NCBI GenBank assembly: GCA_951406725.2
Contig: OX597825.1
Span: 35,092,001 to 35,156,000, forward strand
Direction of reading: 5' to 3'
DNA length: 64,000 nt
Origin: Octopus vulgaris
Taxonomy: Eukaryota
The notes beneath the pieces are model-generated. The model was not told the origin of the DNA. It was given only the letters and a program-made list of their open reading frames with translations, and made no database searches. Position numbers and translations under genes: made by a program. Shown here piece by piece: positions 1,716-64,000 of this stretch (position 1 is the first letter of the stretch; each line of letters starts with the position of its first letter).

Positions 1716-1997
1716 AAGAATTGGCCATCATCATATTGAAATTTACATACATAAATCTACCAAAATCAACAAATGAAAAAAATTACATAACTCCAATGAA
1801 TAAAACGTGTTCTTATTATAGAAGTAAAAATATTTTTAATAGTATATCTCTAAATAAAGCTAAATCAAAAAGAAACAACCCACCAAATACATAGGTTCAA
1901 GCCATATGTAAAATACAACCCCCATAGATAATATTAGTTATAATGATAAAAAAATGAACACTAATGTTACATACAAAGTCGAGAAGCATTCAAAGGC

Positions 1998-2035
<38 letters not shown>

Positions 2036-2611
2036 AATTAGTATTTATTGTAAAAACTCTTTCATGCTAACAATAATAGAACATGCATTCCAGCATGCAA
2101 CACAAGAAAAACAAAGTAGATAATGTATTTGCATATCTATCGATATGTGTGTGTGCTTGTATGTATGTATCTATCTGAGTGCATTTGTATGTATGTATGT
2201 ATGTATGTATGTGTGTGTGTGTGTGTGAGATAGAGAAGGAGAGAGAGAGAGAGATAGAGAGAGAGAAAGATAACATAAATTTAGAAAAAAATTTGCAATA
2301 GAAATAACTACATGAAAGTGATAAAGAGGGAAAAAAAGGGGGAAGAAGAGAAGGGATTTCCCTGTCTTTTTCCATTTCTTTATCATTCTCACATACAACA
2401 GATAGTGAAATGAAGGAGAAGATATAGAGAGTAAGAAACGGCTTTGTTGTATCTCTGAAGGGTCATTATGCCAATAATAAACTTATGCACTGGTTCTATT
2501 TCATTTCTTTATTATTATTATTATTGCTAAGTACCAGTGACATTCTGGGGTCGATGTAATCAACTAGTCCCCTCCCACAAAATTTCAGGCCTTGTGCTTA
2601 TGAAAGTAAGG

Positions 2612-2656
<45 letters not shown>

Positions 2657-2669
2657 GTTGTTGTTATTA

Positions 2670-2980
2670 GTCAATTGGTTAATAATTTAACCAATTAGCT
2701 AATTAATTAGTTGATTAATTCTTTGGTTACTCAATCATTCAATCTATCAGCTAAGTCTGTCAAAGTCTTTTTATTGCCATTCCAGACCTCGTCCATGACC
2801 CCCCCTCCAGGTTTGTTTTAGTTTTATTTGTCACTGCGACAGAAAGACCTGAAATAGCGGGGGCATGTCATTAATGAGGTCATAAATGGCAATGAAAGGA
2901 CTTTGACAAACCACGCTGGTTGATTGGTTAACCATAGGATTAACCAAACAAACAAATAGTTAACTGGTTAAATGATTGAC
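2670..2980. mobile_element. Foldback MITE-like element, possibly Tourist/PIF-Harbinger type
   Basis: Long imperfect inverted arms: gtcaat...tttaacca vs tggttaaatgattgac, and tgtcaaagtc...attgccatt...gacctc...catgac...ccccc vs ggggg...gtcat...gaggtc...aatggcaat...gactttgaca. TTA lies on both flanks (2667-2669, 2981-2983). Confidence 0.7.
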
Positions 2981-3679
2981 TTATAAGAATAAAAGAAGTG
3001 AAAGACAACCAGTGTGTGTGTGTTTATTATTGGCACAATGATCCTCCTTTGAGACAACAAAATATGTTTCAATGTATGAGTTCACATCAAGAATCTTGCA
3101 AACCAAATACAAAAACGAAATAAATGGTTGATTAGTAGAAAGATATAACATAAGTAAGAAGAAAAATGAGCAAGACATAGAATAGGGAAGCATTATTTTT
3201 GCCAGTATCATTCCTGTTAGTATTATTATTGTTAGCAGTAATAATATCAACAGTAGAAGTATTGGTGTTAATTGTAGTAATGTTAGCAATATTAAGAATA
3301 AGGAGAAAAACAAGGAAAAAACATGAATGACTGATTCCAAAGTATTGATGAACAAGCAATATATTTGTTAGAAAAAGGAAAAAAACCAAGATCAGAGTAG
3401 TAAAACATGTCAAAATCAAAGCATGCAAGCAAGCAAGCTGTTTAAACCAAGCCCCTCGAGTTAATAGTTAAATTTCAACTGGGTTAAATGAATTAAGAAA
3501 CCAAAGAAAAATAAAGACAATAAACGCAAAAAAACAGCCTTATGTTGAAGTAAAAGTGGTACAAACCTGAGAGATGCATGAGATGAGCTTGACTGCACTG
3601 ATGCCGACCTGAATACAATACAACCTGAATAGTGTGGGAGAGACTACTGTGATATTTGACTTTGCCAAACACATTGATA

Positions 3680-4125
3680 AGAAAGAGAATGACGTGGACA
3701 ATAGCAGACAATGACAACACACAGAGCAGAGACAATGACGGAGAAGAGGTGACAGTGATAAGGAAAATATGACGGTGATAGAGAAAGAAATGATTGTGAC
3801 ATGGACAATATAAGATGAGAAGACAATGAAAGAGTGTAAATGACATTAGAAACAGCTGATGATAAGAGATAGAGAGGACATGACAAAAGGAATGAAAAGA
3901 TGATAATATTAGAAAAGTGATGACAGTAACACAGAAGAGACAACAATAAAGAAGAGATGGCAAAAGAGAAGGAAATGATGGTGACAGGTTTTGAAGAGAC
4001 ACTGATAGGGAGGAAACAATATTTACAAGGAACAGATGACATTGATAGGAAACAGATGACAAAGACGGAATAGACAACAATGAGAGCAGACAGACAGTTG
4101 GCAGTAATAGAGATAATGGCAGGGT
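3680..4125. repeat. Degenerate purine-rich minisatellite (GACAATGA/GTGACAG/AGAGA-like units)
   Basis: Recurrent gacaatga, gtgacag and agagac motifs. Explains the spurious Ser/Leu-rich minus-strand ORFs. Confidence 0.6.
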
Positions 4126-4689
4126 TCTGGTAATTGTTGTTGAGTAAATTCCATCAGCCCTATTTCAGGAAACTTACACCATGAAATAGAGTTATCTTTT
4201 TGAAAAGACTAATAAAAACGCACTGACCAAGCAAATCACTTCATCTAGTAATTCCGTTTCGTTTGAACATTTTTTTTTCTATTCAACCAATATTTTTATT
4301 GCAATCAATCTGTCTTTATTTGATTTGGTCAATAATGTCATAAGGTTCATAATAGGAGACATGTCATGTGTGATTCCTCAGTTCAGAGAAAAATGTGGTT
4401 GCTATGTTAAATAAGTCGAGTGTAGAGATAAATAGTTAAATAGTCAATCACTGAGACTATGACAGTATGATGTAGTGATGGCAGGCGATAAAAAAAAAAT
4501 TGAAATTTGTTTCTTTCATAAAATACAAGTTTTAGTTTATGTTTATCACACACACACGCACAGTCAGCGAAAGAGTCTGTTCTGTGTTTTAAGCATTTGT
4601 AAGGATATCATGAAATACAAACATACCATACTGATGTAGTTTAATAAATAACTTTCTTTCATACACACATTTCATCAATCTTATTTTTC

Positions 4690-5831: not shown

Positions 5832-6210
5832 GTCAATTAAAAAGACAAAAGAAAACTCAATCAAATGTGAGGATGTAGCACAAGCAATGTATTAATATGA
5901 CATTCAAAGGGTAGTTGTCTTACATTTCGAGCATAGCTCTTCATTGGAAACAGGAAAAATAAGAAAGTTTAATGGGAAAAAGGAAGGAGGAAAACAATTA
6001 TCAACCAACAGTCCATGGGCTGTTGTATTTCTGAAGCGAGGAAGAGAAAGTGCTTTCTGGGACAGGAGAGTGTGAAGATGGTTGGCATGTGTGTGTGTGT
6101 GCGTGTGTGTGGCAGTAACTGCGTGTGTGTGTGCATGGTAGCATGTGATGGTAACTGTGTGTGTGTGTGCATGTGTGGTGTGTGTATGTAGCAGTGTGTG
6201 TGGTATTAAC
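5832..6210 (-). mobile_element. Related Penelope-like pseudo-LTR with degenerate hammerhead, tail-to-tail with the 5430 copy
   Basis: Minus strand 5951-5917 reads gttt-CCAATGA-a-GAGC-tat-GCTC-GAAA-tg-TA-agac. Same layout as the 54653 element: CA-rich tract, then motif, then T-rich tail into (TA)n. Confidence 0.6.
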
Positions 6211-6960
6211 TGTGTTTACTTTGAATTTAATCTGTTTTGGATTGCCTTTATAATGATGTTGTTAGCATATATTTTCAGATATAGGATATTAATTTGACTG
6301 GTCGTGTATTCTATTTTCTGTATCAAAATATGCTGGCACAGTAGAAACGATTATCAGTAATGTATGGTGTAATCACCAATTAAAGATGTGATTTTCTCCA
6401 TTCTTATTCTTGTCTTATACTCCAAGTTTCTTGAAATTCTTCTGAACAATATTTGGATTTATTTGTCATATATGAAGAATTTCCTAGAATGTTTTTTTTA
6501 CTTGCATTTGTTGCTATCTGATTGTTTGATGTAGTTAACCAAATTCATTTAACACTGAGTGCATTATAGATATGTTCAGCCAGAGGAGCATGATGTAACA
6601 CATCTGTTTGCCAATAAAAAACACGTGTAAAACAGCTGAAGTGAACCACAATCCATCTGTTGTTATTTGTTTATCTGGCACCTAACTTAGAACATGTAAT
6701 TCATTTGTATATAGAATCTACAGACAGTGGTACAATAAGTGCAGTGAGCGTACCCATGGGTGACCTTGATGATTAATTGTGTATTTAGTCAATCATTTGT
6801 GAATGTATGCATAACTGGAGTAAAAGTCCGTGTTTACTTTAGTAAGTATGTATTTGTCCTTAAATACTGTTTGTACATGATACGATTACAACTGACTTGA
6901 CCTTGGTGCTTTCACTATTTAAGTACCTGATTCTCTTGCGTCTGGGAAATTTTATACATA

Positions 6961-7176
6961 TTCTTTTATTCTTTTACTTGTTTCAGCCATTTGGCTGTGG
7001 CCATGCTGGAACACTGCCTTAAAGGGTTTTTAGACGAAGAAATTGACTTATTCTTTGTAAGCCTAGTACTTATTCTATTGGTCTCTTTTGTCAGACTGCT
7101 AAGTTACATGGACATAAACATACTAACATCAGTTGCCAAGCAACAGTGGGAGACAAACAGATACATACACACATAA

Positions 7177-7207
<31 letters not shown>

Positions 7208-7365
7208 CAATGAGCTTCTTTCAGTTTCCATCTACCAAATCCACTCACAAGGTTTTGGTTGGCCCAAGGCTATTGTAAAAGACACCTACCCAAGGTGTCA
7301 CACTGTGGGACTGAACCTGGAACTATGTGGTTGAAAAGTAGGTTTCTTACCACACAGCCACACCT
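6961..7365 (-). mobile_element. SINE family B (tRNA-derived, CORE-like, octopus OR-type)
   Basis: Diverged reverse-complement copy of the 22791-23203 element. Confidence 0.9.
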
Positions 7366-8999
7366 GTATATATACATATATGAGGTACTGCACAGTGGGA
7401 TTAAACAGGAAGCCACACAATTGCTTAGCGAAATTCTGAATCATGCAGCCATACATGTGTTCATGTCCATACCTACACTTAACATTGACATATGAAATAG
7501 TTCAGAATATTCACTTGTGGGAAAACATATGCACTGGAGACAAATCTTAATATATTCATTGACAAAATATTCAAATACATTGATTGGTGAAATATATGAA
7601 TATATCCCTTACTGGTATTTATATTTTCAGAAAACTTAATTATTTTGTGCAGATCTATTTATAGATCAGTTAAGCAAAGGCTATAACTTTTCCTAAAAAG
7701 ATTCATTTGGAGATCGTGTCATCATTTGATGGAATTCAAGTAATCTAAAGCATTAAGTATCCATGGAAAGCTAATATTGTCGATATAATTATTAAGCAAT
7801 GATCATGAAGATAATGGTAACAGTCTGATACTGATGTTAATTTTGTTGAGTTGGTGATAGCAATGTCAAAATTAGAACTGAAAAATGCACATGCTCAAAA
7901 GGGTTGCAGAATATCATGATAAACTTTAAAAAGTATGGGTCTAGCATTGTTGCAATAAAATACTGGAATCACTATATGTTGTACATTTTGTGGCATCTTA
8001 AAACAAAAAGAGACTCGTGTGTGAATTATGATGGCATGATAATAATTAAACAGAGTTCTTAATGCTCTCAGTTCAAATCACACGAAAATTAACTTTACCT
8101 TTCATCTTTCTGGAGTTGATAAAGTAAATATTTGCCAACTAGTTGGTCGATATAAACAACTCTACTTAACTTGTTGTTTGTGGCCTTGTATCTATGTTAA
8201 AAATCATTAATTATAATTATCATTTGGGAAGTGTGTGACAAAATTGGTTACACATGGATAATTTGAGGTGTATTATCATGTCATTTAATTTTGTGTTCAA
8301 ATGCTGCTAAAGTTACATTAACTGCATAAATACTTGCAAAGTACAAATGTTGAATAAATTCACATGCTTCTTACCTCAAAATATGAGGTCATATAAAAAA
8401 TTTAGAATTTATTCATTATAATATTATCATCACCCTGGTCATCATTGTCTTTTAATTGTTGTGCTATCATTATATATATAATAATTGTTTTGCATTCTAA
8501 AAAGATTCCTTGATTTTCTTTCACACACACACACATAGGTTGATAGATAGACAGATATATAGCAGTATGAATTCTCACATTTCTTAGATTTTTAAATACA
8601 ATTCTGAAGCTATTCAATATCATTTACCAATTGTTAGCATACAGAATAAAATACATTGTAGCATTGCTTCCAGCTCTTTAGACTCTGTGTTCAAATTCCG
8701 TCAAGGTCAATTTTGCTTTTCATCTTTGCAGGATTGATGAAATAAAAGTTACAGTCAATATGTACTGGAGTTGATGTAATCAATGGAATTATTGTATTAT
8801 TTGTCTACAAGATTTGTTTTACTTGAGTTGGTTCAAGTCTTTCCCTCACTGAGCTATTATTTTGTTTGATGTCCGAGGAATTAGATTCATTATTTTCTTT
8901 AGGTATACACCTGCTCATCTTTTCTTAAGTTCTTTGTCTCTGATTGTACCTTTCTTGGTCTGTAATGAATGTGTATGTGAGTGATATATATATATATAT

Positions 9000-10536: not shown

Positions 10537-10845
10537 GAGTCAGCATGGGCTAGTGGTTAGAGCAGTGGACTCGCGTTCGAGGGATCGCTGGTTTGAATCT
10601 CAGACTGGGTGATGTGTGTTTATGAGCAAAACACCTAAGCTCCATGCAGCTGTGACAGAAGGTAACGGTGAACTTCTGCTGACTCTTTTGTCACAACTTT
10701 CTCTCATTGTTTCCTCCTGCATCTAACAGCTCACTTACAATGGGCCAGCATCCATTCAGGTAGGGAAATTATACACTAAAGAAACTGGAAAACCAGCCCT
10801 TATGAGCCAGGTGTGGCTCGAGAAGGAACAAACAACAAAACAAAC
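10537..10845 (+). mobile_element. SINE family C (tRNA head), diverged copy
   Basis: A-box tgggctagtggttag, B-box ggtttgaatctc and gagcaaaacacctaagctcca are shared with the 29550, 41707 and 27255 copies. Confidence 0.8.
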
Positions 10846-10866
10846 GCATATATATATATATGCATG

Positions 10867-10909
<43 letters not shown>

Positions 10910-10957
10910 GCATATATATATATATGCGTTTGTTTTGTTGTTTGTTCCTTCTCGAGC

Positions 10958-10961
<4 letters not shown>
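10812..10961. repeat. Near-perfect inverted duplication centred on a (TA)n tract
   Basis: tgtggctcgagaaggaacaaacaacaaaacaaacgcat...tgcatgta is mirrored by tacatgca...atgcgtttgttttgttgtttgttccttctcgagccaca. Confidence 0.95.
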
Positions 10962-11069: not shown

Positions 11070-12330
11070 ATAAAGGATGAAGCAGAGAAGATGCTAAAAC
11101 TATAGGACTATCTCTCTGAACTCTCATGTCAGTAAAGTCATGAAACAAATAGTCTGGAGGATGCTAATTACATTCCTTGAAGAGAATGACATGCTGACTG
11201 ACAGCCAGCATGGTTTTTGACCAGGTAGAAGCTGCCTGGTACAGCTTTTACAGCACTACTCAAAAACTCAAATGGGAACCTGATATATCTTGCCTTTGCA
11301 AAAGTCTTTCATAAAGTCAATATGTCACAAGTCACATGATCTTGGCACTGTAGGGAAACTTGGAGAGTGACTACACAGCTTTCTAAAAGATAGAAAACAA
11401 GTAGAAGTAACCAATGGAGCTACCCCTAAGGAAATGCAAATGAGTGGTGTTCCACAGGGCACTATCTTAGGGCCACTGCTATTCATAGTGACCCTCTCAG
11501 ACATGCCCTCAGCTGATCAGATAGACACCTTTGCCAGCTGTGAAGATGATACAAAAGTCTCTCAGGATACAGAACTCTGGAGATGTAGTATACTGGCAGC
11601 AGAAGCTGTATGCAATATACAGATAGGCTGAGAACAATAATTTGCAGTTTAATGCTGGAAAATTCCAAGCCCTGTGCTACCAGTACACGAAAATGAATGA
11701 AATACAGACAGGATACACTGGCCCAGGTGGAACTGCAATCACTGAATCAAGACCAGTGTGACCTGGGTATTGACTTGAGTAATGATGCATCTTTCCAAAT
11801 GCATATTGCTGAGTTGACAATAAAATGCAGATGACTTCCTGGATGGGTTTTTAGAACTTTCAGAATGAGAGAAGAGAAAACCATGATGGTCACCTGAAGA
11901 ACATATGTACTCAACTACTATAGTCTCTGCAGTGTAAACTAAATGGTGGAACTTGAAGCAATCCACTGAAGCTACACAAAGAAGATTATCTCAATGCAAC
12001 TTGTCAGCTACTGGGAAAGGCTGACAAAAGTTATGGTTCTACTCCCTAGAATGAAGATGGGTAAGATATGCTTTGATACACATCTGGAAAATAAATACTG
12101 GAAATACTTGGGCCAAACTTAGGCATTGGAAGTTAAGAACAGGGTACCACTGCATGGTGCCAAAAATTCCAACATTGCCATCAGGAGACAGAACCAGACA
12201 CTGCAACAGCTTGGGTTTCAAGGGCTCACAACTTTTCAATATCATCTGCAAAAGCCTAGGAGACCTACATAGTGTGGATGTAGGTATCTTCAAAACAACT
12301 GGATCTTCTCTCCCTGCAGCAGGGAACACA
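11070..12330 (+). mobile_element. Decayed CR1-clade LINE ORF2 (reverse transcriptase)
   Basis: NYRTISL, DSQHGF..GRSC, SGVPQGTILGPLLF, EDDTKV (FADDTK-like), NNLQFNAGKFQ and SYWERL motifs. Frameshifted. Confidence 0.92.
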
Positions 12331-12539
12331 AATAAGGGCAGCAATATTAGCCTTTCTCTACTCGTTACTTTTGAAGTTTTCTTTGGAGTCAGATGTCAGT
12401 TTAGCTGGAAAGAAGCAATGCAGTTATTAATCAATGCATGCAAGATTTCACAGCTCCAGCATCACTCCTTTACAGCTTATACTCAGATGTGTGTGTGTGT
12501 GTTTTTGTATATATTTATATACACATATTACTGCTCCTA

Positions 12540-13117
12540 AATTGTCATCACAGAGCATCAAACTGGTGGTGGAACTTGTGTCAATCTAGCACCACTACAC
12601 AAAGAAGATTGACTCAGTGAAATGGACAAACTACTGGGAGAGGCTAAAGGAACCAAAGGTCTATTTCCTGGAGAGAAGGCATGAAAGACATGAAGTGATA
12701 TACATATGATGGAAGATCCTGAAAGTTCTAGCAACCAATTTTGGAACTGAAAGCTATACAAACCACTTAACTGCATGGCAATGCATAGTACCAGAGACCC
12801 TGTCTTCTCCATCTTGAATAAGGACCTAGTATTGCAACAACTTGGGTTTTAAGGATCCACAACTATTCACCATTCTGCCAGACAACCTCAGAGAATTGCG
12901 AGGTGTAGATGTGAAGGTCTTTAAAGAGCATCTACACAAATTTATAGCTGAGATGCTAGATGAACTGTACTACAACAGGAAACACAAAAAGGAGCAGTTC
13001 TGTCCAACTTGCTACTTCACCAGAAACAGTACAGAAATAAAAAATCCAAACACACTGAAAGGCAGTGCTCTAGTATGGCCTCAGCCTCTGGCTGAAACCA
13101 GTAAAAAGATAAAAGAT
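12540..13117 (+). mobile_element. Second CR1-clade LINE 3' fragment including 3' UTR
   Basis: Repeats the C-terminal segment (LGFKDPQLFTILPDNLRELRGVDVKVFK...DE...SNLLLHQ) seen at 12200-12300, followed by a hairpin-bearing tail at 13058-13117. Confidence 0.85.
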
Positions 13118-13907
13118 ATATATACATCTATGTATGTATATGAAAGGTGGGATGTAAAGCCGAGAGTAGTTATTATTTAAGAGGAACAATCAGTTGGCAG
13201 TCCTTTACTAACTTGTCTATTTGTTGTATTTGTTATTTAGCCCAAAGAACTGCACAGATTCAGCAGACACAAAAATCAAAGACATTTTACGCATAATTGT
13301 CATGTATTTTGTTTTATAGACATAATGTAATTTGGGCTACATTATCTAATTTGCTTTTCAGCTTAAAAAAAATGTAGTGTGATAAAGCCAATAAAGTCAT
13401 TGATAAATTGGAAAGGCAACAGGAGCAAAGGAAATGCTAGCAGAAGCATTAAAAAAGCTTCTACAGCCTAGATTGAATAACATGTCTTAGGTAATGTGTG
13501 TATGTGTGTGTGTGTGTGTGTGTGTATGCACACAAACCAACTTAGATGAAATAATCTCTCTTTGTCTCATTATCAAAGAAACTAAAAGCTCAGAATTGCA
13601 CTCCTAAAATACTCATTAAAAAGTCATCAAATATATAAATACATCAATAAAAAAAATGAAGAACTAAGTCAATTAAGTCAATTGTAAAGTGATTTTTGAC
13701 CAGAAACAAGAATTTTGGAAGAACTACTGAACCTAAGAACAATATGTGTAAGAGATTTAAACATAAACCATGATGCTTACATATGTTTTATATGGTAGAT
13801 GAAAATATGTAAAGGTACTCGAATGTATAATTTGAGATATGTGATAAAGAATTTCAAATCATTACAAAACTATACTGAAGCAGCAGGGAGTGATCTGACT
13901 CCCACCC

Positions 13908-17456: not shown

Positions 17457-18130
17457 GTATGTATACATTTATGTGTATGTGCATAGGTATATATATATAT
17501 ATATGTAAATACATATACATATATATATATAGGCATATCTATATATATGTGCGTGTGTGTGCCTATGCGTGCGTACGTGTGTGTGTGTATAACTATGTTC
17601 AATACACATATCTATAATTATATACACAACTATAGAAATATAGTGTCGTATGCACGCACATCTTAGATCAAAGAACTCATCCAAACAAGAAATGTTTCGC
17701 ATGGTAAACAAGAAAGTAACAGCTGTTCTGCAGAATATTTATTGTACCATTCTCTCAAGCACCACTACGGACCAACCGCCAACGGTCATTTAAGCTATAA
17801 GTAATATTGTTCTTTTGTATTCTTTCGCTTGGCTTATATTCCTTTCCTGACTGTTTAGTAGAATAGTTTATGTTATCATTTCTGGTTAGAAATAAATATT
17901 TATTCTTTAGTTACATTATTATAGAATGTAAAGAGTAGGCTGAAAGTTTGAAAGCAGTTCAAATTTAGTATCTAAAAAATATTGGAATGTTGGTCCCACC
18001 CATGACAGCATCGAAGGCGGACGTTAAATGATGATGATGATGTACATATCCATCGTTCACTTTAATATATATATATATATGCATATATATACTTATAGAC
18101 ACACATATATGTACATATACATACATTGTT

Positions 18131-18516
18131 TTCTTCTTTTACTTGTTCCAGTCATTAGAATGTGGCCATACATGAGCACCTCCTTTAGTCGAACAAATCA
18201 ACCCCAGGATTTATTCTTTGTAAGCCTAGTACTTATTCTACTGGGCTTTTTTTGCTGAACTACTAAGTTAAGGGACATAAACACACCAACACTGGTTGTC
18301 AAGCGATGGTGGAGGGACAAACACAGAAACACAAACACACACACATATATATATATATATATGACAGGCTTCTTTCAGTTTCCGCCTACCAAATCTCACA
18401 AGGCTTTGGTCGGCCCGAGGCTATAGTAGAAGACACTTGCTCAAGGTGACATGCAGTCGGACTGAACCCGGAATCATGTGGCTGGCAAGCAAGCTTCTTT
18501 CCACACAGCCACTCCA
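18131..18516 (-). mobile_element. SINE family B
   Basis: Full-length reverse-complement match to 22791-23203. Confidence 0.92.
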
Positions 18517-20511: not shown

Positions 20512-20585
20512 ATGATTGATTGATTGATGGACATATAGTGGTACGTAAGCCGACTCAGGAAATCTCTAGTGAGACTTTTTATTGA

Positions 20586-20629
20586 TGTACCTGAAGAAAC
20601 CTAGAACGGGTCGAAACATGTGTTGTACA
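20586..20629 (+). ncRNA. Minimal type I hammerhead ribozyme motif (Penelope-type)
   Basis: Stem I UGUAC/GUACA; core CUGAAGA; stem II ACCU/GGGU with an A.C mismatch at its base; GAAA; 2-bp stem III with palindromic ACAUGU; GUU cleavage triplet. Confidence 0.75.
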
Positions 20630-21171
20630 CAACAAAATCTATTACACATTCCATCTATTTTGCTAATACTGTTACCCCAACCGCCACTACGAAGTTCCTG
20701 CAATAAATCTATGGATAACAACAGGTAATCGAAACTGTGCCGGTGCTTTACTCATCATCCATTTATACATTTTGTACAATTTCTCCATTATAAATATATA
20801 TATATATATATATATAACAAAAATTTTATAAGAAAGACTGATGCCGAGTAGGTGATATACTGTCGATGAAATGCCACACTGATGAGTCTAAAAGACAATA
20901 TTTGTTCTGACAAATGTCTCAAACGCTACTTAAAAGACTCTTTTCAACTATAATTACTATACTGAATTAGCATAATACAGAGGTGTGTGTGTATTATGTG
21001 TGTTATTTATAGTATCAGTGTGTGTGTGTGTTTAGGTATGTATTCGTTTGGACACTTTGTTGCTCTGTTTAAAACTAACGAATATGAATCGATTAATAGA
21101 TTTTCTATCCAGATTTTAATTTTCATTTCTCAATTCATTATTTCACATAAACATGTGAAAAATATACCTAA

Positions 21172-22250: not shown

Positions 22251-22790
22251 GGCTGAATTCAATTCGTCTCCAGTCGAAAGACGCCTGTTGTTATGTCCTG
22301 TTATTATTATTATTTTTTAAAAATATTATTTTTGTATTTATATTCGTGTAACATCGTCCGTTTTTCCGTCCTTGTTTCGTATACATTTGAAGCTTTTTTC
22401 CAAGGATTCTAATGCTCTTAGCCTAGTTTTTCCTTGGGGCAGGCCAGATTGGCGCAATCTCAAGATTAATCAGCTGAAATTGCGAGGATGATCCGGTTCT
22501 TGACTGAAGATTAAAGGCTTCGAATGACCCGTCCGTGTTTTTTTGTATCGTCTATCTGGATGTTTTGCGTTCTTGACCCATTTTGTATATATATATATAT
22601 ATGCGTGCATTCAAAATTAAGTTTGGCAAATATATTATGAAATTATATATCTACAACGTTATTACATGTCCTGCGATCATTATAACCAAGGAGGCCTCTA
22701 ACAAGAAATTTCACCAAAAGCATGAATTTTATTTACAAAACACCCTCATAACATAATAAAGAACATATGGTGATCTAAAATATTATTTAT

Positions 22791-22962
22791 AGGAGTAGGA
22801 GTGGCTGTGGCGTAAGTAGCTTGCTTACGAATCACATGGTTCCGGTTTCAGTCCCACTGCGTGGCACCTTGGGCAAGTGTCTTCTACTATAGCCTCGGGC
22901 CGACCAAAGCCTTGTGAGTGGATTTGGTAGACGGAAACTGAAAGAAGCCCTTCGTATATATG

Positions 22963-22995
<33 letters not shown>

Positions 22996-23203
22996 ATATG
23001 TTTGTGTGTCTGTGTTTGTCCCCTCAACATCGCTTGACAACCGATGCTGGTGAGTTTACGTCCCCGTAACTTAGCGGTTCGGCATAAGAAAACTGATAGA
23101 ATAAGTACTAGGCTTACAAAGAATAAGTTCTGGGTTCGATTTGCTCGACTAAAGGCAGTGCTCCAGTATGGCCGCAGTCAAATGACTGAAACAAGTAAAA
23201 GAG
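22791..23203 (+). mobile_element. SINE family B, full length (tRNA-derived, CORE-like, internal microsatellite, LINE-like tail)
   Basis: A-box gtggctgtg...taag, B-box ggtt(t)cagtccc, CORE-like caccttgggcaagtg, and tail ggcagtgctccagtatggccgcagtcaaatgactgaaacaagtaaaag. Confidence 0.93.
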
Positions 23204-24412
23204 TATATGCCGAGCGCCTTAATATGCACACCTATTTTTTTTTAACATTTGGAATGCATTGTTGAATTTCTCACAGATCAATACATTTGTCAATTGCATA
23301 GAGATGTTTGACGAAATGGTCTAATTATGTAATAAGATGATGTAATACATTATTGAACAAATAATTAACTGTTCTACAGAAACTTTTGTAATATGCGAAC
23401 AATATCTCAATTCATATTCTTTTATCACACACAAACATACACACATATATGCACTACAGCACTCACTTGCAAGAGAGTATGACATGGCACCATGGACATA
23501 CTTTCACCAGTAGTTTTGGGTGCCCACGCAGTCACAAGCAGGCCCTCACACTCTCACTTCTCCCATGCGTTACTCATCAGAACATCCATGATGTTTCAGT
23601 TAGAAAGAGAGAGAAAAAGAGAGAGGACTGTACTAGAATCAGGTCCTTATTACATGGTACTTATTACATATGTTTTAACTGAATGTACTAGAGCAATGTG
23701 AAACATAGTGCCTTGCTCTATAAAGACACAACTTTGACCAGGATTCGAAACCAGAATCTTATGATTGTGAATCCAATACTAGGCCGTGCTTCTTCAGTAT
23801 ATACGTTTGTGAGTTATAAATGGAGGCATGTTTAGCAACTCTAGTCCCATTGAAACGACTAAGCATTTCATAGTACTGACTGCTTACGTACGCATGCACG
23901 CACACTCACACACATTCAGAATTAAATTAGAGATTCGGTAACAAAGTCTTAAATTACATAATCTTTACACGTGTTCCACTAATGTATGTGATGCGGTAAT
24001 TGTTGCAAAGACGGTTGCATAATCACCCTATAATATTAGATCATCAGAAGAAAGCATTAATTTACACCACTGTTGATCACCGACGGCAGTTGGTAGACAG
24101 ATACAAGCTGAGAGCAACTTTTACAGCCGTCTTTGTAATAATTACAGCATAGTATACTATGGTAGTATAGGCAAGTGAAATACGTATAAATATGTAATTT
24201 ATGATGCTATATTAAAAAAATTGTTACCGTATCTCGAGTTTTGTTCAGAATCTGAACTATATACTCTGTAATCTATGCAAATGTATATAACAGCAAACGA
24301 AAATCGGCGGACAAATTGTTTAATATTTCATTAAAAGTTGGGCATACATGGATTTACATGGAGTTCTAAGCAAAGGTTATCTGTTAAACTATCTTATTCG
24401 AAGTAGCGACTT

Positions 24413-45550: not shown

Positions 45551-47687
45551 GTACTTTCTTCATTTTGAATTTTCTTTTGAAATGCATAACTCAGAACTTT
45601 CCAAACCATTTTCCTTCTTTATATGGGTTACCTGAAGGAAGTTGATCGTCGTCCAAATATAAATATCACAGGCCTTATATTTCCCTTTGTCAACCATAAA
45701 ATCCAAGTTTCATGAATTGATCTCAATACGAGTAATTTTAATAGACGTTCTATTTCATTTGGTTGACCCTTTTGCTTCGAGAAACGGATTGGAAACATCT
45801 GACGCTGTCAGCAGCAAACAACATCAACAATAATAATAGCTATCTATGTATCATAATTAATGTATTCACATTGTCAATCGGCCAGTTACTACAGGACAGC
45901 ATTTGTCCTGAGACAGCATCTCTTACGGACTTGCTGTATTAAAGCACAAATATCAGAAAAGGCGAAAATTCGTCCCTTTCGCTCTGAATGTGAGTCTATG
46001 CATCTCTTTAATTTATTAGATTAATATTTCCCGAAGTAACATAAATATTTATAAGATATTTAAAAATAACAATGTAAAATATGTTTTACCTTGAACACAT
46101 ATTTTCGACACGGAATTAGCAAACATCAATAATAAAAATCTGAAAGCACATAACTACATCATTCTCTTCGTATGTGTTGCTGTATCTTGCGTATTTTGTC
46201 TTTTTTCCAAAGTCGATAGTCTTATATACGAGAGGATTTACAACTGGTAATCCTGTCTCTCAACATTATATCAGTTTAACTGCGAATCCTTTTAAGTTAA
46301 GATTCAGTTAACATTGATATTCATTCAGAAAAAAACCCCAAAGATCGCTTGGTACAAGTTTGCTAAAGCATATCTTTCTTGTTTTAACAAAGCTATCAGA
46401 CAACAAGATAATATGAAGATATCGCAGATTCCAAAGCTTGCAAACAAATGGTTGTATTCGGAATGAATGATCAATATTTTACTTTTGTGCTTATGTTTCA
46501 TTGCCACCATAAATCAAAATATTTGTGGTAATATTTTAGATATCTAATAATTGAACTTAGGTCAGCATTGCGATAATATTTCTTTTGCTAGAGGGCACAT
46601 GCATTCAGAGAGCATCTAACGTTGCAAATCAAAGTTTTCTGTTCAGTTAATTCTAAACAGCTTGCTTATGACCTTTGGACTGCCTTGTTTATTATTGTTC
46701 GGCGATTTGAACTTCGGACAGCCTCCTAATACAGTTGTCTTTTAACAGCAAATATACTGAATTAAAAATATATAGTCACGAACCCTGAGAAGGTGGACAG
46801 TGGATTGTTCTGTGTAACACTGTTGCATGGTTTTATACTTTTGATATAGATGTTGAGCGTATTACTCCACATAATATCAAATCCATATTTTTCTCTATTC
46901 TGTACACAAGCAAATATTATTATACATACATATATATATATGTATATATCTATTTTACTTGTTTCAGTCATTTGACTGCGGCCATGCTGGAGCACGCCTT
47001 TTAATCGAGCAACTCGACCCCGGGACTTAATCTTTTGTAAGCCCAGTACTTATTCTATCGGTGTCTTTTGTCGATCCGCTAAGTAACGGGGACATAAACA
47101 CACCAGCATCGGTTGTCAAGCAATGCTAGGGGGACAAACACAGACACAAAAACATACACGCACACACACATATATATATATTTATACGACGGGCTTCTTT
47201 CAGTTTCCGTCTACCAAATCCACTCACAAGGATTTGGACACTTGCCCAAGGTGCCACGCAGTGGGACTGAACCCGGAACCATGTGGCTGGTAAACAAGCT
47301 ACTTACCACACAGCCACTCCTGCGCCTATATATATATACACATATATATATAAATATATATACATAATAAATTAATGTTCCCTTATAAATTGTTAAAAGT
47401 CTTTCAGCCTCCTGCACTCTAGACATATTCACAAGCTTCCCGTTTAACTGCATTTTATTGTATCTTTCGGAAAATTATTCCTTTACTTGTTGCAGTCTTT
47501 GGATTAAGACAATGTCTTCATTGCTTTGGTCGATCAGTCGTCAGATCGACATCGGTACACATTCTACGTATCTGGATCTCTTTTCACATGATCAACTTCC
47601 TTCAGATAATCCACACAAAGAGGGAAAATTGTTTGGAAAGTTCTGAGTTATGCATTTCAAAAGAAGATTCAAAACGAAGAAAGTTAC
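45551..47687. repeat. Pair of ~97 bp inverted repeats about 2 kb apart (45551-45647 and 47590-47687)
   Basis: ctttcttcattttgaat...gaaatgcataactcagaactttccaaac...ctgaaggaagttgatc is reverse-complementary to the second arm, roughly 90% identical by eye. Confidence 0.9.
46953..47326 (-). mobile_element. SINE family B (internal deletion)
   Basis: Reverse-complement match to 22791-23203. Confidence 0.92.
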
Positions 47688-53918: not shown

Positions 53919-53991
53919 TGAGAGAGAGAAAGGGAGAAAGAGACAGAGAGAAGATAATATATACATACATACACACACATATATATATATA

Positions 53992-54222
53992 CCGAAGTAA
54001 ACACATAAATGTGAAACAAGGTGGAAAAAAGAGTACTCAAATACCAGTGGTAGAGTAATATGCTTTATTTAAAGCACCAGGAAATTCTACAAAACTTGTT
54101 ACTCTGAGTTTCACGTTGCCGTTCATCGGACAGTTTTAGCAAAAACTGTCCGATGAACGGCAACGTGAAACTCAGAGTAATAGGTTTTGTAGAATTTTCT
54201 GCTGCTTTAAATAAAGTATATA
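53992..54222. mobile_element. Palindromic Penelope-type pseudo-LTR module with a hammerhead-like motif on each strand
   Basis: Inverted arms 54058-54137 and 54142-54222. Each reads aactgt-CCGATGA-ACG-gcaa-CGT-GAAA-ctcaga-GTA. Flanked by (TA)n on both sides. Confidence 0.8.
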
Positions 54223-54235
54223 TATATATGTATTT

Positions 54236-54637
54236 GAGCAGGTTTGGCTGTGTGGTAAGAAGCTTACTTCCCAATCACATGGTTCCGGGCTCAGTCCCAC
54301 TGCATGAGAACTTGGGCAAGTATCTTCTACTATAGCCTCGGGCCGATCAAGGCCTTGTGAGTGGTTTTGATAGACGTAAACTGAAAGAAGCTCTTCGTAT
54401 GTGTATATCTATCTATCTGTGCGTGTGTTTGCGTTTGTCCACCCCCATCACCACTTGACGACTAGTGTTGGTGTGTTTACTTTCCCGTAAATTAGCGGTT
54501 CAGCAAAAGTGTCCGTTAGAATAAATACTAGACATAAGAAATAAGTCCTGGGGTCAATTTGCTCGACCAAAATCCTTGAAGGCGTTGTCCCAGCATGGCC
54601 GCAGTCAAATAAATGCAACAAGTAAAAGAATAAAAGA
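54236..54637 (+). mobile_element. SINE family B
   Basis: Full-length copy. Confidence 0.92.
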
Positions 54638-54652
54638 ATATATATATATATA

Positions 54653-55968
54653 GTTGGAAAACAACAAACAAAAGACGAAGACGGATGTGTAAACAACAAA
54701 CAGATGTATTAGTTTAACACTCGAGAAATGAGAAAGTCTTTTACGTTTCGAGCCTACGCTCTTCAATAGAAATGAACACAGAAATAAACAGAGAGAGAGA
54801 AAAAAAAAAAAAAAAAGGTTTAGTGGCTAGCGATAAATAATGGCGAATGCCGGACAGAGGTGGTCAGATAGGGGAGCTAGGTAGAAGGGGAGATAATAAA
54901 GTAGTGGTGATCCAAAACGAAGGTGCGCGTGCGTCTGTATGTGAGAGCGTGTATGTGCGTGTAGATAGGGGCTGGTGACGTGTGCATGTGTAGGTGTGAG
55001 GATGATGGTGTGGATGCTTGGAAGTGGTCAGTCCTAGTTAGTGCGGGGTGGTGTGATGTGGTGTGGTGTGTTGGTGTGTGGTGTGTTGGTGTGTGGTGTG
55101 GAGTGGTGGTGTGTGGTGTGGTATGATGTGGTGTGGTGATGTTTGGTGTGGTGTGGTTGTGTGTGGTGTGGTGGTGTTGGGGTGTGGGGGGAGAGGGTAG
55201 GGTGTGGGTTGGGGTGAGGATGGGGTGCGATGGGATGTATAGGGGTGGTGCGGTTGGAATGTGTAGGGGTGGGGTAAAGAAAGAGGTGCTGACGATGAGG
55301 GTAGAGGGTGGTAGGGTGAAGGTGGGTAGGAGTGAAGAGAGGAAGTAGGTATCAGAGTAAGAGAGAAGAGGTGAGTGTGGGTGAAGGGAGGGAGTAGGTG
55401 TGCGAGGAAGAGAGGAGAGACGAGGGGGTTAGATGAAGAGGGGAGGAAAGTTGAGCTCATGTGGCGCAAAGGAGCGAAGAAAGAAGATTAATTCCTGTTC
55501 ACGCCGAAGACGGGAGTCCGGATGGCCCTTGTGCAAGGACAATCCGAACACAGATTGTAAAGAATGACCGGTAGAGCGGACATGGCGCGAGACCGGGGTG
55601 TCGTTGCCGAGTCTGATGTCTCGGAGGTGTTCCGCGAACTGGGCAGCCAAGCGGTGTCTCATTTGACTGATGTACAGAGAAGGACAGAGAGAGCAGGAGA
55701 TGCTAGAAGTGCAGGTGAAGAAGTCAGTGCTATGATAGGGTCGATGATGGGTGCCTGTGAAATGGTGGTGTTGGAGAGGTAAGGGGAGTGCAGCAGCATG
55801 GGTGGGAGCAAGGGAACGAGCCGGGTTGGGAGGTTGAGTTAGGGAAGAAACTGGACTAGGAGGTCACGTAGGTTGTGGGCTCGTTTGAAGGAGGGAAGGA
55901 GGCGGTTAGGGAATATGTGCGAAGTGGAGGGGTCGGACTGGAGTCGCCGGAAGGCTCGGAGAATAAAG
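54653..55968 (-). mobile_element. Penelope-like retroelement 3' portion (GIY-YIG endonuclease plus pseudo-LTR), probably Neptune-like
   Basis: Minus strand, frameshifted: RRLQSDPSTSHIFPNRLLPSFKRAHNLRDLLV, FPCSHPCC, FTCTSS.SCSLCP, RLAAQFAEHLRDIR..DTPVSRH..STGH, RLRREQELIFFLRSFAPHELN. Hammerhead-like motif at 54773-54738. The 3' end abuts (TA)n. Confidence 0.9.
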
Positions 55969-60517: not shown

Positions 60518-61678
60518 CAGTTTTATTTCAAGATTTCTCGCCAATAGAGAAAGAGCCGGTTTCTAACCTAGATCAAGGACTCCTTTATTGGAACTTCAAC
60601 ATCAACAACAGGGTATATTTGTATGCTTGTATGTATGTCTGTATGTCTGTCTGTCTGTATGTATGTATGTATGTACATTTGTATGTTTTATTTTATGTTT
60701 GTATTCTCATGCATTTAGTTGCATATGTAGACATGCTCATATACATTTAAATGATAAACTTCTGGAAAGTTTTACAGATTTTTACGGTTCCAGTGATGGA
60801 TTGGATCTGTAGTCTTCGAATTAGATTTCTCCTTTCTGGTTTTGAGAAGCCTAGTTTCTCAAAATTATTATTTAGGCAGTGTGATACATATCCCAGGGCC
60901 CCAATAATTACAGGTATAAACCTGAACTTGTAATCTGGTTAGAGTAACTGCAGATTTCTCAATAGTTCAGCGTAGGTATTCTCTTTTTCACTGATCTTCA
61001 GCTTTACGTTAGCATGTACTGGATAGCTAATTTCTACAACTGTACACAGTTTCTCTTCTCTATCCAAATCATTATATCAGGTCTGCTGTGCCTACATTTT
61101 ATTGAGGTCTTCACTGGGACATTCCACCAATACTCCTTTTTATTATGAATGTCTATGGCGTCTACCATACTGTGAATTTTTATTTATTTGTCCTCAGGGT
61201 TATCCTTCCGACGGATTTCCTTACAGAGTGTCCTAACTACAACATCACGTCTCATCGGTAGATAACACCGTGATGACATTTTCGGACAAGTGCTTATGAT
61301 GTGGGTTATATCTTCGGATTTAACTCCAAAAAATTCGGCATCGGTTGTCACATTTTACTGATTTCCTGCATCTCTATCCTTTTTGTGCATTTATATGGTT
61401 GATATTTATTTCCTGTTTCTGGATTGCAGATGCATACCCTTCAAAGTGGAAGGTAATAATCCGGATGTTGGTCCATGATAAATTGCTTTGGTGATCAACG
61501 TTACTATCACCTCGGAGCTTTCTACTAACTTATCCATGCATAGTCTTCTGCTCATACAAGCTCATCCTTTTATCTGATGATACGTTGTGGTAGAGTTGTG
61601 TGACTTTCTTGGGCATGTATTCTAGGTTATCAGACAAGGAATGTTGCTCAAGGAGCTGCGTTCCAAGTTTTATGATGT
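60513..61678 (-). mobile_element. R4/Dong-like non-LTR retrotransposon 3' fragment (Zn knuckle, restriction-like endonuclease, 3' UTR)
   Basis: Minus strand: EGYASAIQKQEIN, CRIF...EDITHIISTCPKMS, RPDIMIW, EEKLCTVVEISYP...KISEKENTY and FIPVIIGALG. The 3' end abuts (TA)n at 60463-60512. Confidence 0.88.
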
Positions 61679-62607
61679 GATCAGCAACTTTTGGACCGTA
61701 GCTTGGGGAATGTGAGGACGTGCATTGTCGAGGAGCAAAATTAGGCCATCTCTCTTCACTAGTCTGGGTTGCTTCTTTTTAAAATTCTCATACATACATC
61801 AATTTCCTAGCAATACGATGTTCTGTTACCGTTTTTCCTTGTTGCAAAAATGAATAATGAGTAACTCCCTTCGCAGGCCACCATATAGTGACCATTAACT
61901 TTTGAGGGTGCAATGGTGGGTTTGGGTAGTGTTTAAGTGATTCTCTTGCATCTAATCATTGCCCTGTTCTCCTGCTGTTGTCAAAGAGTATCCATTTCTC
62001 ATCGCAGGTAATGATTTGATGCAAAAATGGTCTTTTTCCAGTCGTGAAAGCAATAAGGAGCACACTTCGAGCCGTCTGTTTTTTAAATCCCGTTCAGTTG
62101 ATGAGTAACAAACCTATCCGTTTTCTTGACCTTTCCAATGTTTTACAGGTGTCCAAGAACAGTTGTGCGAAATATTTGGAGTTTTGATGAAAATTTTCGA
62201 ACTTTTGTCCTCGGATTTTGTTGAACCAAAGGATTTAATCCATCATGTCGAATAACTTATTTTGGCCTACCTCTTTGTTTATTTTCAAGGCTATCATCTC
62301 CTGAGCGAAAGCTTTGGAACCATCTCTGAACAGTCCTGATGTCAACAAAACCATTACCAAAGGCCCGCTTGATATTCTATAGAGCTTCTGTGACAGAGTG
62401 ACTCAGTTTGTACTTATACCAGAAAATCACTCAACATAGTTTCGTTGTTAACATTTTCATAAGGTCTGTGTGTACGAATTTTGTATGCCGATTTTGTTGG
62501 GAAAGAAAAGAGTCAATATTAAATGCAAGGTATACATAATTGAGCTTTTAAATGACTGAAATAACAAGTAATTAAAAATGCGACATTTCATGTGAAACAA
62601 TCTAATA
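61679..62607 (-). mobile_element. Mariner (Mos1-like) transposase pseudogene with one TIR
   Basis: Minus strand: WFQSFRSGD, QIITCDEKWIL, KLMVTIWW, LILLLDNARPH. TIR-like tattagattgtttcacatgaaatgtcgc at 62607-62580. Confidence 0.9.
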
Positions 62608-62775
62608 CATTCTAATGTGTCTTTTCCTCATTTAAGCGATACGATTTGGCTGCTGGTTAATTAAAGAGCTTCACACAATGTGTGTATATATATATGGACA
62701 TTTAAATGCGTTCAAATTTGAACGGATTAAAAGAAATGACAGTGAGTGACGGTGAGTAAAAATAACAATACTTAC

Positions 62776-63519
62776 GACTGATGGAGGATCCTCAGTAATG
62801 ATTGTTGGTGATTGTTTCTTTCGTTTACATATCCACCAGCCGTTATCTTGTGCGTAGGCGTGGAGTACGAAGGCAGGGAAGTATAGGAATGTTACCCAGG
62901 CTTCCCAAATAGTTACAACTCCGGGAGAGATGAAAGCTGTTACGATATACATCCATATATAAGCCCATAGAGACCAGATAGACGTTGTAATAAATACTCC
63001 AAACGTTTTGATTTTCTTTACTTTGTTATTTGGTAAACTGGATATACAAACGGAGGTTATCATTAACAAATTGAAAGCAGCGCTACCTACAATGGTAAAA
63101 GTACCAAGGTTTTTCTCCCCGCTTTGGTCCCCAAGTCTTAAAACATTCTCTATTGTGGCCAATAATATCTCTGGAGCACTGCTTCCAAGAGCTAGAAGTG
63201 TAAGATTGGCGACAGTTTCGTTCCACACCATTACTTCTTTTGCAATTCTCTCCTGTCGCTCCTCATCCCACTTGTAGACTGTTTTCTTTTGGCTGGTAAT
63301 TACTTCAATACTACTCATGAACAAATCGGAGACAATAGCAATTCCTAAAAATATGTACAGCATGGCTATTATATAAATCACACCTCGTGTTGTATGAAGC
63401 CAAAGGTTTTCTCCTGGCACAAGAATCCAACTCGAACATCTGGTGTGGTTTTCTGGGATGTATTCCACTATATACCCGTAGGTATAGTTCTGTCTGAACT
63501 CCATTATTACTTCATTCAT
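62776..63519 (-). CDS. SLC8A: Sodium/calcium exchanger (NCX/SLC8-like), N-terminal transmembrane exon (TM1-5, alpha-1 repeat), 248 codons
   Basis: FMSSIEVITSQ, VWNETVANLTLLALGSSAPEILL, TIVGSAAFNLL and WEAWVTFLYFP are NCX hallmarks. Acceptor ttttcag|TC-ATG (exon starts 63521); donor GTC|gtaagt after 62776. Confidence 0.97.
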
Positions 63520-64000
63520 GACTGAAAACAGAATAATAAAAAGCTTTATTAGATTTATTTATTAAACTGAAATGTGGTGGCTCAAAAGAAAATAACAAAA
63601 ATCATACAGCTCTCTCACACAAAAAGCAAAGAACAACAATAAATCTCAGTGAAACTCCAAAAAGCAAGCAAAACAACGGGAAATAAAAATGTTCTCTGTC
63701 GTCTGAATGTATTTTGAAATATAGGAAAGGGATAAAAGAAAACGTTTAAAGCTTTTTTCTTCAAAATCTACCGAGTAACACGTGTAAAACCGCTACTCCT
63801 AGCTCACGCTTTTTTTCATTTCTGGCTCCCGTAGGAATGAACCACACGCTTTGCTTTTATATTACTATTATTGTTATCTTTTAAACATTATATATGTGTA
63901 TATGTGTCTGTGTGTTCTCTCACTCTCAAACATATACATTCATAATGCATGACTCATGCATATATGCTGAAATTTTAAAAAGTAGATGTAATGGTAGTAC

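What the first reader, a model, noticed from the sequence alone, without database searches (positions are those of the whole stretch)
54058..54222. Palindromic double hammerhead-like module with a CCGAUGA core
Seen: 80-bp inverted arms around a 4-nt spacer. Each strand encodes stem I (aacugu with acaaguu/auagguu), core CCGAUGA, stem II ACG-GCAA-CGU (GNRA loop), GAAA, stem III ACU/AGU and a GUA site. The arms differ at a few positions, so this is not a fresh artefact. The 5951 module has CCAAUGA, consistent with the same C4 variant. Known: Penelope insertions often have inverted LTR segments, and U4 is normally conserved. Inference: a U4C hammerhead lineage; one motif is sense in the NCX pre-mRNA but would be sequestered by the long hairpin.
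Basis: partly seen in the sequence, partly recalled or inferred. Interest (0 to 1): 0.7.

Follow-up and report, generated by a model that had tools for sequence, protein, structure and literature searches.

The report
Penelope stub with long-lived U4C hammerhead
This palindrome is two head-to-head stubs of the front end of a very common Penelope-type jumping gene, and its hammerhead-shaped RNA, predicted to cut itself, has C instead of the usual U at core position 4 in thousands of copies, a change that likely persisted through several waves of jumping before the youngest branch likely switched back.

Summary
The palindrome is real (80-bp arms, 5 mismatches) but is part of a 225-bp insertion (53992-54216) in (TA)n: two inverted, 5'-truncated copies of the leader of a Hydra-clade Penelope-like retroelement, one with an extra 71-nt tail. 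The genome holds about 10,000 such arms and an intact 727-aa RT/GIY-YIG copy. U4C is not a decayed copy: 35 of 68 sampled cores have C4, C4 copies carry their own ORF, and an older family (ORF about 70% identical) is C4 by consensus, whereas all 25 published Hydra-clade hammerheads have U4. The youngest intact subfamily has U4, likely a reversion. Arms pile up at one 5' point, often with an extra G, so the template was likely capped, uncut RNA; no excess of arms starts at the cut site. U4C is known from a viroid (reduced but sufficient activity). Cleavage is untested. In the Na/Ca-exchanger intron the motif is predicted to be locked in the hairpin. The 5951 module is a different family. Known kind, new variant.

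The parts
53992..54216 (.). Whole insertion: two inverted 5'-truncated copies of the leader (pLTR 3' part) of a Hydra-clade Penelope-like element
   Evidence: blastn to the full-length unit L057:5300-8900, 91-92%; same layout in 32 of 35 inverted pairs
53992..54062 (-). 71-nt 'tail': sequence that follows the pLTR end and runs towards the ORF start in full-length copies; present on this arm only
   Evidence: tail described in PMC11167929 and 10.1101/2021.04.23.441226
54063..54137 (-). Left arm, sense on the minus strand (sense in the host pre-mRNA); begins 8 nt before C3
54096..54133 (-). Type I hammerhead motif, minus strand: C3 54129, C4 54128, predicted cut after 54100; stem I reads ACAA instead of family ACAG
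54137..54216 (+). Right arm, begins 13 nt before C3 (4 nt short of the inferred RNA 5' end), ends at the pLTR end AAUAAAG; includes the 4-nt loop 54138-54141
54146..54183 (+). Type I hammerhead motif, plus strand: C3 54150, C4 54151, 2-bp stem II with GNRA loop, palindromic helix III 54170-54178, predicted cut after 54179; stem I reads AUAG instead of ACAG
53978..53991 (.). Left (TA)n target repeat
   Evidence: sequence
54217..54229 (.). Right (TA)n target repeat
   Evidence: sequence
62674..63558 (-). Host gene context: open frame with the alpha-1 repeat of a Na/Ca exchanger; the insertion lies downstream of it in the gene's direction
   Evidence: PF01699 E 3.5e-19; second PF01699 match at C12:35000672-35000815, minus

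Best explanation
The palindrome is a short head-to-head insertion of a Hydra-clade Penelope-like retroelement whose hammerhead motif has C at core position 4, a state that is likely ancestral in this lineage and likely tolerated by a slow, dimer- or protein-assisted ribozyme. Mechanism (inferred): a capped polymerase II transcript starts at the A 17 nt before C3, inside the upstream pLTR; the element's RT/GIY-YIG protein nicks both strands of a (TA)n repeat and starts two cDNAs from two fixed points on the RNA leader (pLTR end, +66, and tail end, 71 nt further); each cDNA runs back through the uncut hammerhead towards the cap; the two cDNA ends are joined by microhomology, giving an inverted pair with one tailed arm. 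The hammerhead fold is kept by selection in the master elements (core, stems, GNRA loop and helix III palindrome unchanged while the ORF diverged by about 30%), position 4 behaves as a tolerated site, and the youngest intact subfamily regained U4, plausibly by CpG deamination. This copy itself is likely inert: in the host pre-mRNA the antisense arm is made first and pairs the whole motif.
For: Shown: 9,970 exact matches to a 19-nt arm motif; full-length 3,365-bp unit with an intact 727-codon frame between two hammerheads with DKT, YRDDG and CxCx5C motifs as defined for Hydra; atlas neighbours at 0.99-0.96 carry HTH_animal, GIY-YIG or RVT_1 on part of their members. First 100 arms on contig C1: 65 insertions, 35 inverted pairs, 32 of 35 with one tailed and one tail-less arm, 14 of 14 full pairs agree at position 4; 35 of 68 full cores C4. 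C4 copies have their own ORF, 86-93% aa identical to the U4 one in L118, with C4 in all three of its pLTRs; consensus ORF segment 33 synonymous versus 19 non-synonymous codon changes of 233. Older family: 28 of 34 arms C4, 5 T4, 1 A, and 5 with A5, the symmetric pattern of CpG decay from CCG (counted by eye). Young U4 versus old family: 5 differences in the 38-nt motif, at positions 4, 7, the N of GNRA, the base 3' of stem II and the unpaired centre of helix III. 5' ends: 28 of 100 at -17..-12, 0 at -18..-30; non-genomic purine before the -17 A: 461 matches, G in 62 of the first 100 (counted by eye), 7 of 19 inspected G not explained by partner arm or flank, two insertions with G on both arms. 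Cut-site starts 51 versus 49 and 115 at neighbouring positions. Helix III: +2.1 kcal/mol as a hairpin, -7.4 as a dimer duplex. Literature: two RT start sites, both strands extended, uncut RNA as template, protein-assisted cleavage for PAc (PMC11167929); U4C lowers activity but allows viroid infectivity (PMC3088659).
Against: No cleavage data. The hammerhead fold is 3-5 kcal/mol above the monomer MFE for all four arms tested, U4 included. No double-sided compensatory change in the lineage. Conservation of the leader could reflect promoter or RT binding. The pile-up at -14..-16 can also come from the quasi-palindrome TTCTAGCAA, and 12 of 19 inspected G could be templated or are of unknown origin. 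The ORF tree has a long outgroup branch and one U4 copy (L058) groups with the C4 clade at 86% support, one more (L120) sits inside it, so the order of C4 and U4 is inferred mainly from the old family, not proven. The old-family sample was retrieved with a C4 query. No C4 copy with an unbroken ORF was found among 20 long candidates. The two exchanger matches were not shown to be one transcript.
Confidence: 0.72

Rival explanations
1. Same origin, but the C4 hammerhead is catalytically dead: the fold is kept only as a binding or start signal for the element's protein or as part of the internal promoter, and cleavage is dispensable for transposition.
For: No excess of arms starting at the cut site in U4-type (23 of 51) or C4-type (28 of 51) copies; PAc core mutants still insert in vitro (PMC11167929); Naiads thrive without hammerheads; stem II is only 2 bp, shorter than any of the 25 Hydra families tabulated; other core variants are common in this genome.
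Against: C3, G5, A6, G8, A9, G12-A14, A15.1-U16.1 and H17 stay unchanged across about 30% ORF divergence while free positions change; U4C is the known tolerated change; cut RNA fragments might simply be poor templates.
Confidence: 0.2
2. The short palindrome is itself a non-autonomous unit (MITE- or SINE-like) that was copied as a whole from one or a few master palindromes.
For: Recurrent junctions around CTAG: 10 of 35 pair spacings fall at 116-122.
Against: Spacings range from 41 to 4,243; junctions differ base by base; the same layout occurs in U4, C4/U7 and C4/C7 subfamilies with matching arms; arms grade into full-length ORF-bearing copies.
Confidence: 0.04
3. This copy has been co-opted by the host: the 80-bp hairpin in the exchanger intron acts as an editing substrate or small-RNA source, or gates a ribozyme that cuts the pre-mRNA.
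For: Very stable hairpin (-121.7 kcal/mol on the minus strand) in an intron; heavy A-to-I editing in cephalopods is recalled, not tested.
Against: One of thousands of like copies; both arms have changes in stem I; nothing locus-specific was seen; only contigs were available for reads.
Confidence: 0.04

Closest known systems
Hydra clade of C-terminal EN+ Penelope-like elements (Craig et al. 2021, PMC8557442 / 10.1101/2021.04.23.441226), incl. Hydra-2_aMil, Penelope-3_HM, Penelope-13_HM, Hydra-1_Obim
   Same: DKT, CxCx5C linker, C-terminal GIY-YIG region, (TA)n targets, hammerhead in the pLTR, inverted 5'-truncated copy, unpaired bases on both sides of stem II; stem I ctgt/acag and helix III actc-N-gagt with site A are the same as in Hydra-2_aMil.
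   Different: All 25 tabulated Hydra families have U4 and stem II of 3 bp or more; here C4 in about half the copies and 2 bp. Tail 71 nt against the 30-40 bp described for PLEs; unit 3.4 kb against mostly under 3 kb. Hydra-1_Obim has another hammerhead, so this is a different family.
[quoted passage not shown]
   Same: Type I, palindromic helix III predicted to work as a dimer, extra base after A9, opposite-strand pairs close together.
   Different: Their descriptor demands cuganga and stem II of at least 3 bp, so it would miss this motif; no G10.1-C11.1 pair here.
U4C hammerhead variant of a viroid (Ambros and Flores 1998, as cited in PMC3088659 and PMC4075628)
   Same: Same core substitution, reported to lower activity in vitro yet allow infectivity.
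   Different: There a variant of a viroid RNA; here the consensus of several retroelement subfamilies with thousands of genomic copies, in a type I motif with a weak helix III.
PAc (Poseidon from Anolis carolinensis; Frangieh et al. 2024, PMC11167929)
   Same: Two RT start sites bounding the tail, both strands of AT-rich DNA extended, uncut RNA as template.
   Different: Different clade; there the ORF starts inside the hammerhead, here the open frame starts about 157 nt after C3; nothing was reconstituted here.

Membership tests
Penelope-like elements (EN+) | Single ORF with RT and C-terminal GIY-YIG endonuclease | tested here: met
   727-codon open frame with RT motifs and a C-terminal VYRA..TYTG region, motif-for-motif like Hydra-1_Obim and Hydra-2_Amil by eye; atlas neighbours carry GIY-YIG, RVT_1, HTH_animal on part of their members. 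Pfam and PDB gave no direct hit.
Penelope-like elements (EN+) | pLTRs from partial tandems, inverted 5'-truncated copy, tail on one end | tested here: met
   L056, L057, L118; 32 of 35 pairs with one tailed arm
Hydra clade | DKG changed to DKT; CxCx5C linker; no CCHH in the endonuclease | tested here: met
Hydra clade | Insertion in (TA)n and hammerhead in the pLTR | tested here: met
Hydra clade | Placement inside the clade in an RT phylogeny | not tested
   Published proteins were seen only as cut text; no tree with them was built
Type I hammerhead ribozyme | Core C3 U4 G5 A6 N7 G8 A9, G12 A13 A14, A15.1-U16.1, H17 | tested here: not met
   All positions met except U4, which is C in both arms; U4 is met in 33 of 68 sampled family cores
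Type I hammerhead ribozyme | Three helices around the core | tested here: inconclusive
   Helices can be drawn and are conserved, but stem II is 2 bp, helix III is stable only as a dimer, the fold is not the MFE and no compensatory pair was seen
Type I hammerhead ribozyme | Site-specific self-cleavage after NUH | not testable with these tools
   Indirect test negative: 51 arm starts at the site against 49 and 115 next to it
Non-LTR retrozymes | Head-to-tail tandem non-coding units, each with a hammerhead | tested here: not met
   Copies are single or head-to-head and belong to a coding element; definition from 10.64898/2026.07.22.740005

The most novel reading that the evidence does not exclude
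A U4C hammerhead has been the working, selected form of a retroelement ribozyme through several amplification waves (about 30% ORF divergence, thousands of copies), arose separately in a second octopus family, and reverted to U4 in the youngest active subfamily; the subfamilies form a natural series for tuning cleavage rate against the need to keep a capped, uncut leader as RT template, and standard CUGANGA searches miss this whole class.
Probability: 0.4. Interest if true: 0.62.

Novelty: new variant of a known kind. Interest (0 to 1): 0.4.

Why it matters
What the hammerhead does for Penelope-like elements is an open question (stated). Here sister subfamilies differ at a core base, all transposed in the thousands, and an intact U4 master exists, so U4 and C4 leaders can be compared with one protein. 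The genomic stubs also record the template: likely capped, uncut, copied from two fixed starts. If C4 cleaves, descriptors need CYGANGA and 2-bp stem II; if it does not, the family shows that the fold can be kept without catalysis. For the host gene this copy is probably an ordinary intronic repeat.

Tried and rejected
Rfam: no hammerhead hit at the locus at E<=1; only sub-threshold miRNA hairpin matches. Pfam and PDB sequences: no hit for the 727-aa protein. First arm comparison was off by one base and redone. The C4 reference anchor failed and was fixed; divergences included tail columns and were redone (U4 3.6%, C4/U7 2.8%, C4/C7 7.3% over 56 columns; too few columns, and U4 is a mix of ages, so not used for dating). 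Exact-motif counts (1,357 C4 against 3,710 non-C) understate C4 because they miss the C7 subfamily. Cut-site footprint: none; of 30 candidates inspected the script called 18 truncated, about 15 by eye (my notebook's 19 was wrong). Sequencing runs: no RNA holder on record, only contigs; two lays cannot show starts, strand, editing or level. Splicing at the acceptor-like TTCCATTCTAG before stem I: no joint there in 4 runs of contigs, and longer stubs match the genomic upstream sequence; not supported. G-U bias of the arm mismatches on the + strand: too few to test. Two different templates for the two arms: ACAAG occurs in 8 of the first 100 arms of this sub-type, both arms in one insertion, weakly suggestive only. 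Ambros and Flores 1998 (PMC147498) is not held; known only through two citing papers. Literature searches: hammerhead+U4C gave 1 paper; octopus+Penelope+hammerhead 5; Penelope-like+cephalopod+transposable elements+palindrom 0; CCGAUGA/CCGANGA/CCGATGA/CYGANGA 14, none on this by listing (PMC13481778 uses CYGANGA 10 times and was not read); Penelope+untemplated+cap+inverted+twin priming 12, none on PLE caps by listing. One supplement file of PMC4209133 was not searchable, bioRxiv supplements are closed, and Repbase/Dfam were not available, so the family may already be catalogued.

Full report
Observation. The region 54058-54221 is an inverted repeat of 80 pairs with 5 mismatches around AGCA; it folds at -128 kcal/mol, z = -23.4. 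Each strand carries CCGAUGA-ACG-GCAA-CGU-GAAA-CUCAGAG-UA flanked by a possible stem I. Rfam does not report it. The feature is real and far beyond chance.

What it belongs to. A search of the own genome (G000, 2.8 Gb; an octopus according to earlier scan notes) with one arm gave 872 candidates, 40 scored, most with an inverted partner. A 19-nt motif from the 3' part of the arm has 9,970 exact matches. Aligned copies show the true ends: (TA)n, a 71-nt tail, the inverted arm, a variable junction, the second arm, (TA)n; in the window this is 53992-54216. Some copies are long: L057 holds a 3,365-bp unit with an unbroken 727-codon frame between two hammerheads. [quoted passage not shown]

Position 4. 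Exact 23-nt motifs give 1,357 C4 and 3,710 non-C, all T in the 100 listed. A position-ordered sample anchored downstream of the cut site (first 100 arms on contig C1) has 68 full cores: 35 C4 (24 CCGATGA, 10 CCGACGA, 1 CCAACGA) and 33 with T at position 4. The state is tied to other sites (T4 with A after stem II in 31 of 33, C4 with G, T or C in 34 of 35) and agrees between arms in 14 of 14 complete pairs, so these are subfamilies. Long C4 copies carry their own ORF; L118 covers residues 1-726 at 86-93% identity with frame breaks and has C4 in all three pLTRs. None of 20 long candidates had an unbroken frame. An older relative (L079, ORF 69-71% nucleotide identity) defines a family of 1,265 candidates, 40 scored; 28 of 34 of its aligned arms have C4, 5 have T4 and 5 have A5, as expected from CpG decay of CCG (counted by eye). 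All 25 Hydra families in File S2 of PMC8557442 have U4. The simplest reading is U4 in the clade ancestor, C4 early in this lineage, and U4 regained in the youngest intact subfamily; the ORF tree separates young U4 from C4 copies but has a weak root and two U4 copies on the C4 side, so the order is inferred.

Is the motif under selection? Between the young U4 and old C4 forms the 38-nt motif differs at 5 places: positions 4 and 7, the N of the GNRA loop, the base 3' of stem II and the centre of the helix III palindrome, which is unpaired in a dimer. None of the 30 paired, GNRA-defining or catalytic positions changed while the ORF changed at about 29% of bases (hand estimate of chance 0.71^30, about 3e-5; assumes independence). 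This fits selection on a hammerhead fold that tolerates C4, but promoter or protein-binding constraint could contribute, and no compensatory pair was seen. Helix III costs +2.1 kcal/mol as a hairpin and gives -7.4 as a duplex of two copies; the monomer hammerhead fold lies 3-5 kcal/mol above the MFE for U4 and C4 alike. PMC3088659 (passages and section 8) reports that U4C considerably lowers activity in vitro but permits viroid infectivity; PMC4075628 (first part of two) found no inactivating U4 mutants in a phage selection. PMC4209133 (parts 1-2 of 4 and one supplement file) found low, dimer-dependent activity for PLE hammerheads and used a descriptor that requires cuganga and a 3-bp stem II.

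How the palindrome forms. The 100 arms make 65 insertions; 35 are inverted pairs, and 32 of these have one tailed and one tail-less arm, with spacings from 41 to 4,243. 5' ends pile up at -17..-12 from C3 (28 of 100), none lie at -18..-30, 22 go further, 50 are spread over -10..+35. The -17 base is the A of an initiator-like CCATTC (consensus recalled) that is kept in the old family; an internal promoter is known for Penelope (passages of PMC2377424). Where the base before this A is a non-genomic purine (461 matches), it is G in 62 of the first 100; 7 of 19 inspected G are not explained by partner arm or flank and two insertions have it on both arms. This points to a copied cap. Arms that start exactly at the cut site number 51, against 49 and 115 at the neighbouring positions, about 15 of 30 inspected being true truncations, so the template was uncut in U4 and C4 subfamilies alike. 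With the PAc results (parts 1-2 of 4 of PMC11167929: two RT starts, both strands extended, uncut template, protein-assisted cleavage) the model is two cDNAs primed on opposite strands of (TA)n from the two starts and joined by microhomology. In this copy the + arm stops 4 nt and the - arm 9 nt short of the inferred RNA start, with one shared base.

Host context. A Na/Ca-exchanger alpha-1 exon lies at 62674-63558 on the minus strand and a second exchanger match lies 145 kb beyond the insertion on the same strand, so the insertion is probably intronic. In that pre-mRNA the antisense arm precedes the sense motif; predicted hammerhead pairs have probabilities below 1e-15. Each arm also has a change in stem I. 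Read data were contigs only and do not bear on expression or editing.

The 5951 module has a different stem II and helix III. Among 16 relatives in held loci 9 have C4 and 7 T4, so U4C probably arose at least twice in this genome's hammerhead-bearing repeats.

Novelty. Inverted pLTR stubs, tails, (TA)n targeting and Hydra hammerheads are published, and this scan has noted many such palindromes elsewhere in this genome (872 notes fit the look-up; none by sequence, by U4C words or near this place). U4C itself is known from a viroid. What I did not find in the searches listed under Tried and rejected is U4C as the long-lived consensus of a genomic retroelement lineage with a likely reversion. Verdict: new variant of a known kind; identity about 0.95, capped two-start mechanism about 0.75, active C4 ribozyme about 0.5; interest 0.4.

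Noticed in passing
window 54735-54773 (minus; core 54769-54763), 4763 and 5568 (plus): Another abundant hammerhead-shaped repeat with T at core position 6 (CTGT-C/T/A/G-GA, stem II GAGC-GTAG-GCTC, helix III ACGT); all 15 copies tallied in held loci have T6. An A6U core fixed in a family would be a stronger departure than U4C.
   Followed up: partly
window 5920-5951 (minus): Member of a second family with a 3-nt loop II; 9 of 16 relatives have C4 (CCGACGA common), 7 have T4.
   Followed up: partly
window 20585-20630 (plus): Canonical CTGAAGA type I hammerhead, Rfam RF00163 30.5 bits, below the 34-bit cut-off, with a palindromic helix III; a third family.
   Followed up: no
window 10807-10960: Short inverted repeat around a (TA)n/TGCA centre (arms AAGGAACAAACAAC... 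seen), possibly another tail-only Penelope stub pair.
   Followed up: no
window 54244-54640 and copies at 6953-7381, 18112-18511, 22780-23205, 46927-47354: Abundant SINE-like repeat right next to the insertion, 71-77% identical copies across the window; likely also (TA)n-associated.
   Followed up: no
L059:5391-6047, L127:2122-3911, L114:154-507, L199:1926-2391: Decayed ORF pieces 28-40% identical to the 727-aa protein: further, more distant Hydra-like families in this genome.
   Followed up: no
L057:1194-8900: Giant inverted structure of two complete U4 units around a 650-bp inverted centre, arms 99-100% identical; one arm has the intact frame, the other a single frame break: a very recent insertion.
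   Followed up: partly
window 11371-13177 (plus): Fragments that look like a decayed LINE reverse transcriptase (recalled motifs GVPQG..LGPLLF); no Pfam hit for the two frames scanned.
   Followed up: no
window 61600-62400 (minus): Broken frame resembling a mariner-type transposase just downstream of the exchanger exon (by eye, resemblance recalled).
   Followed up: no
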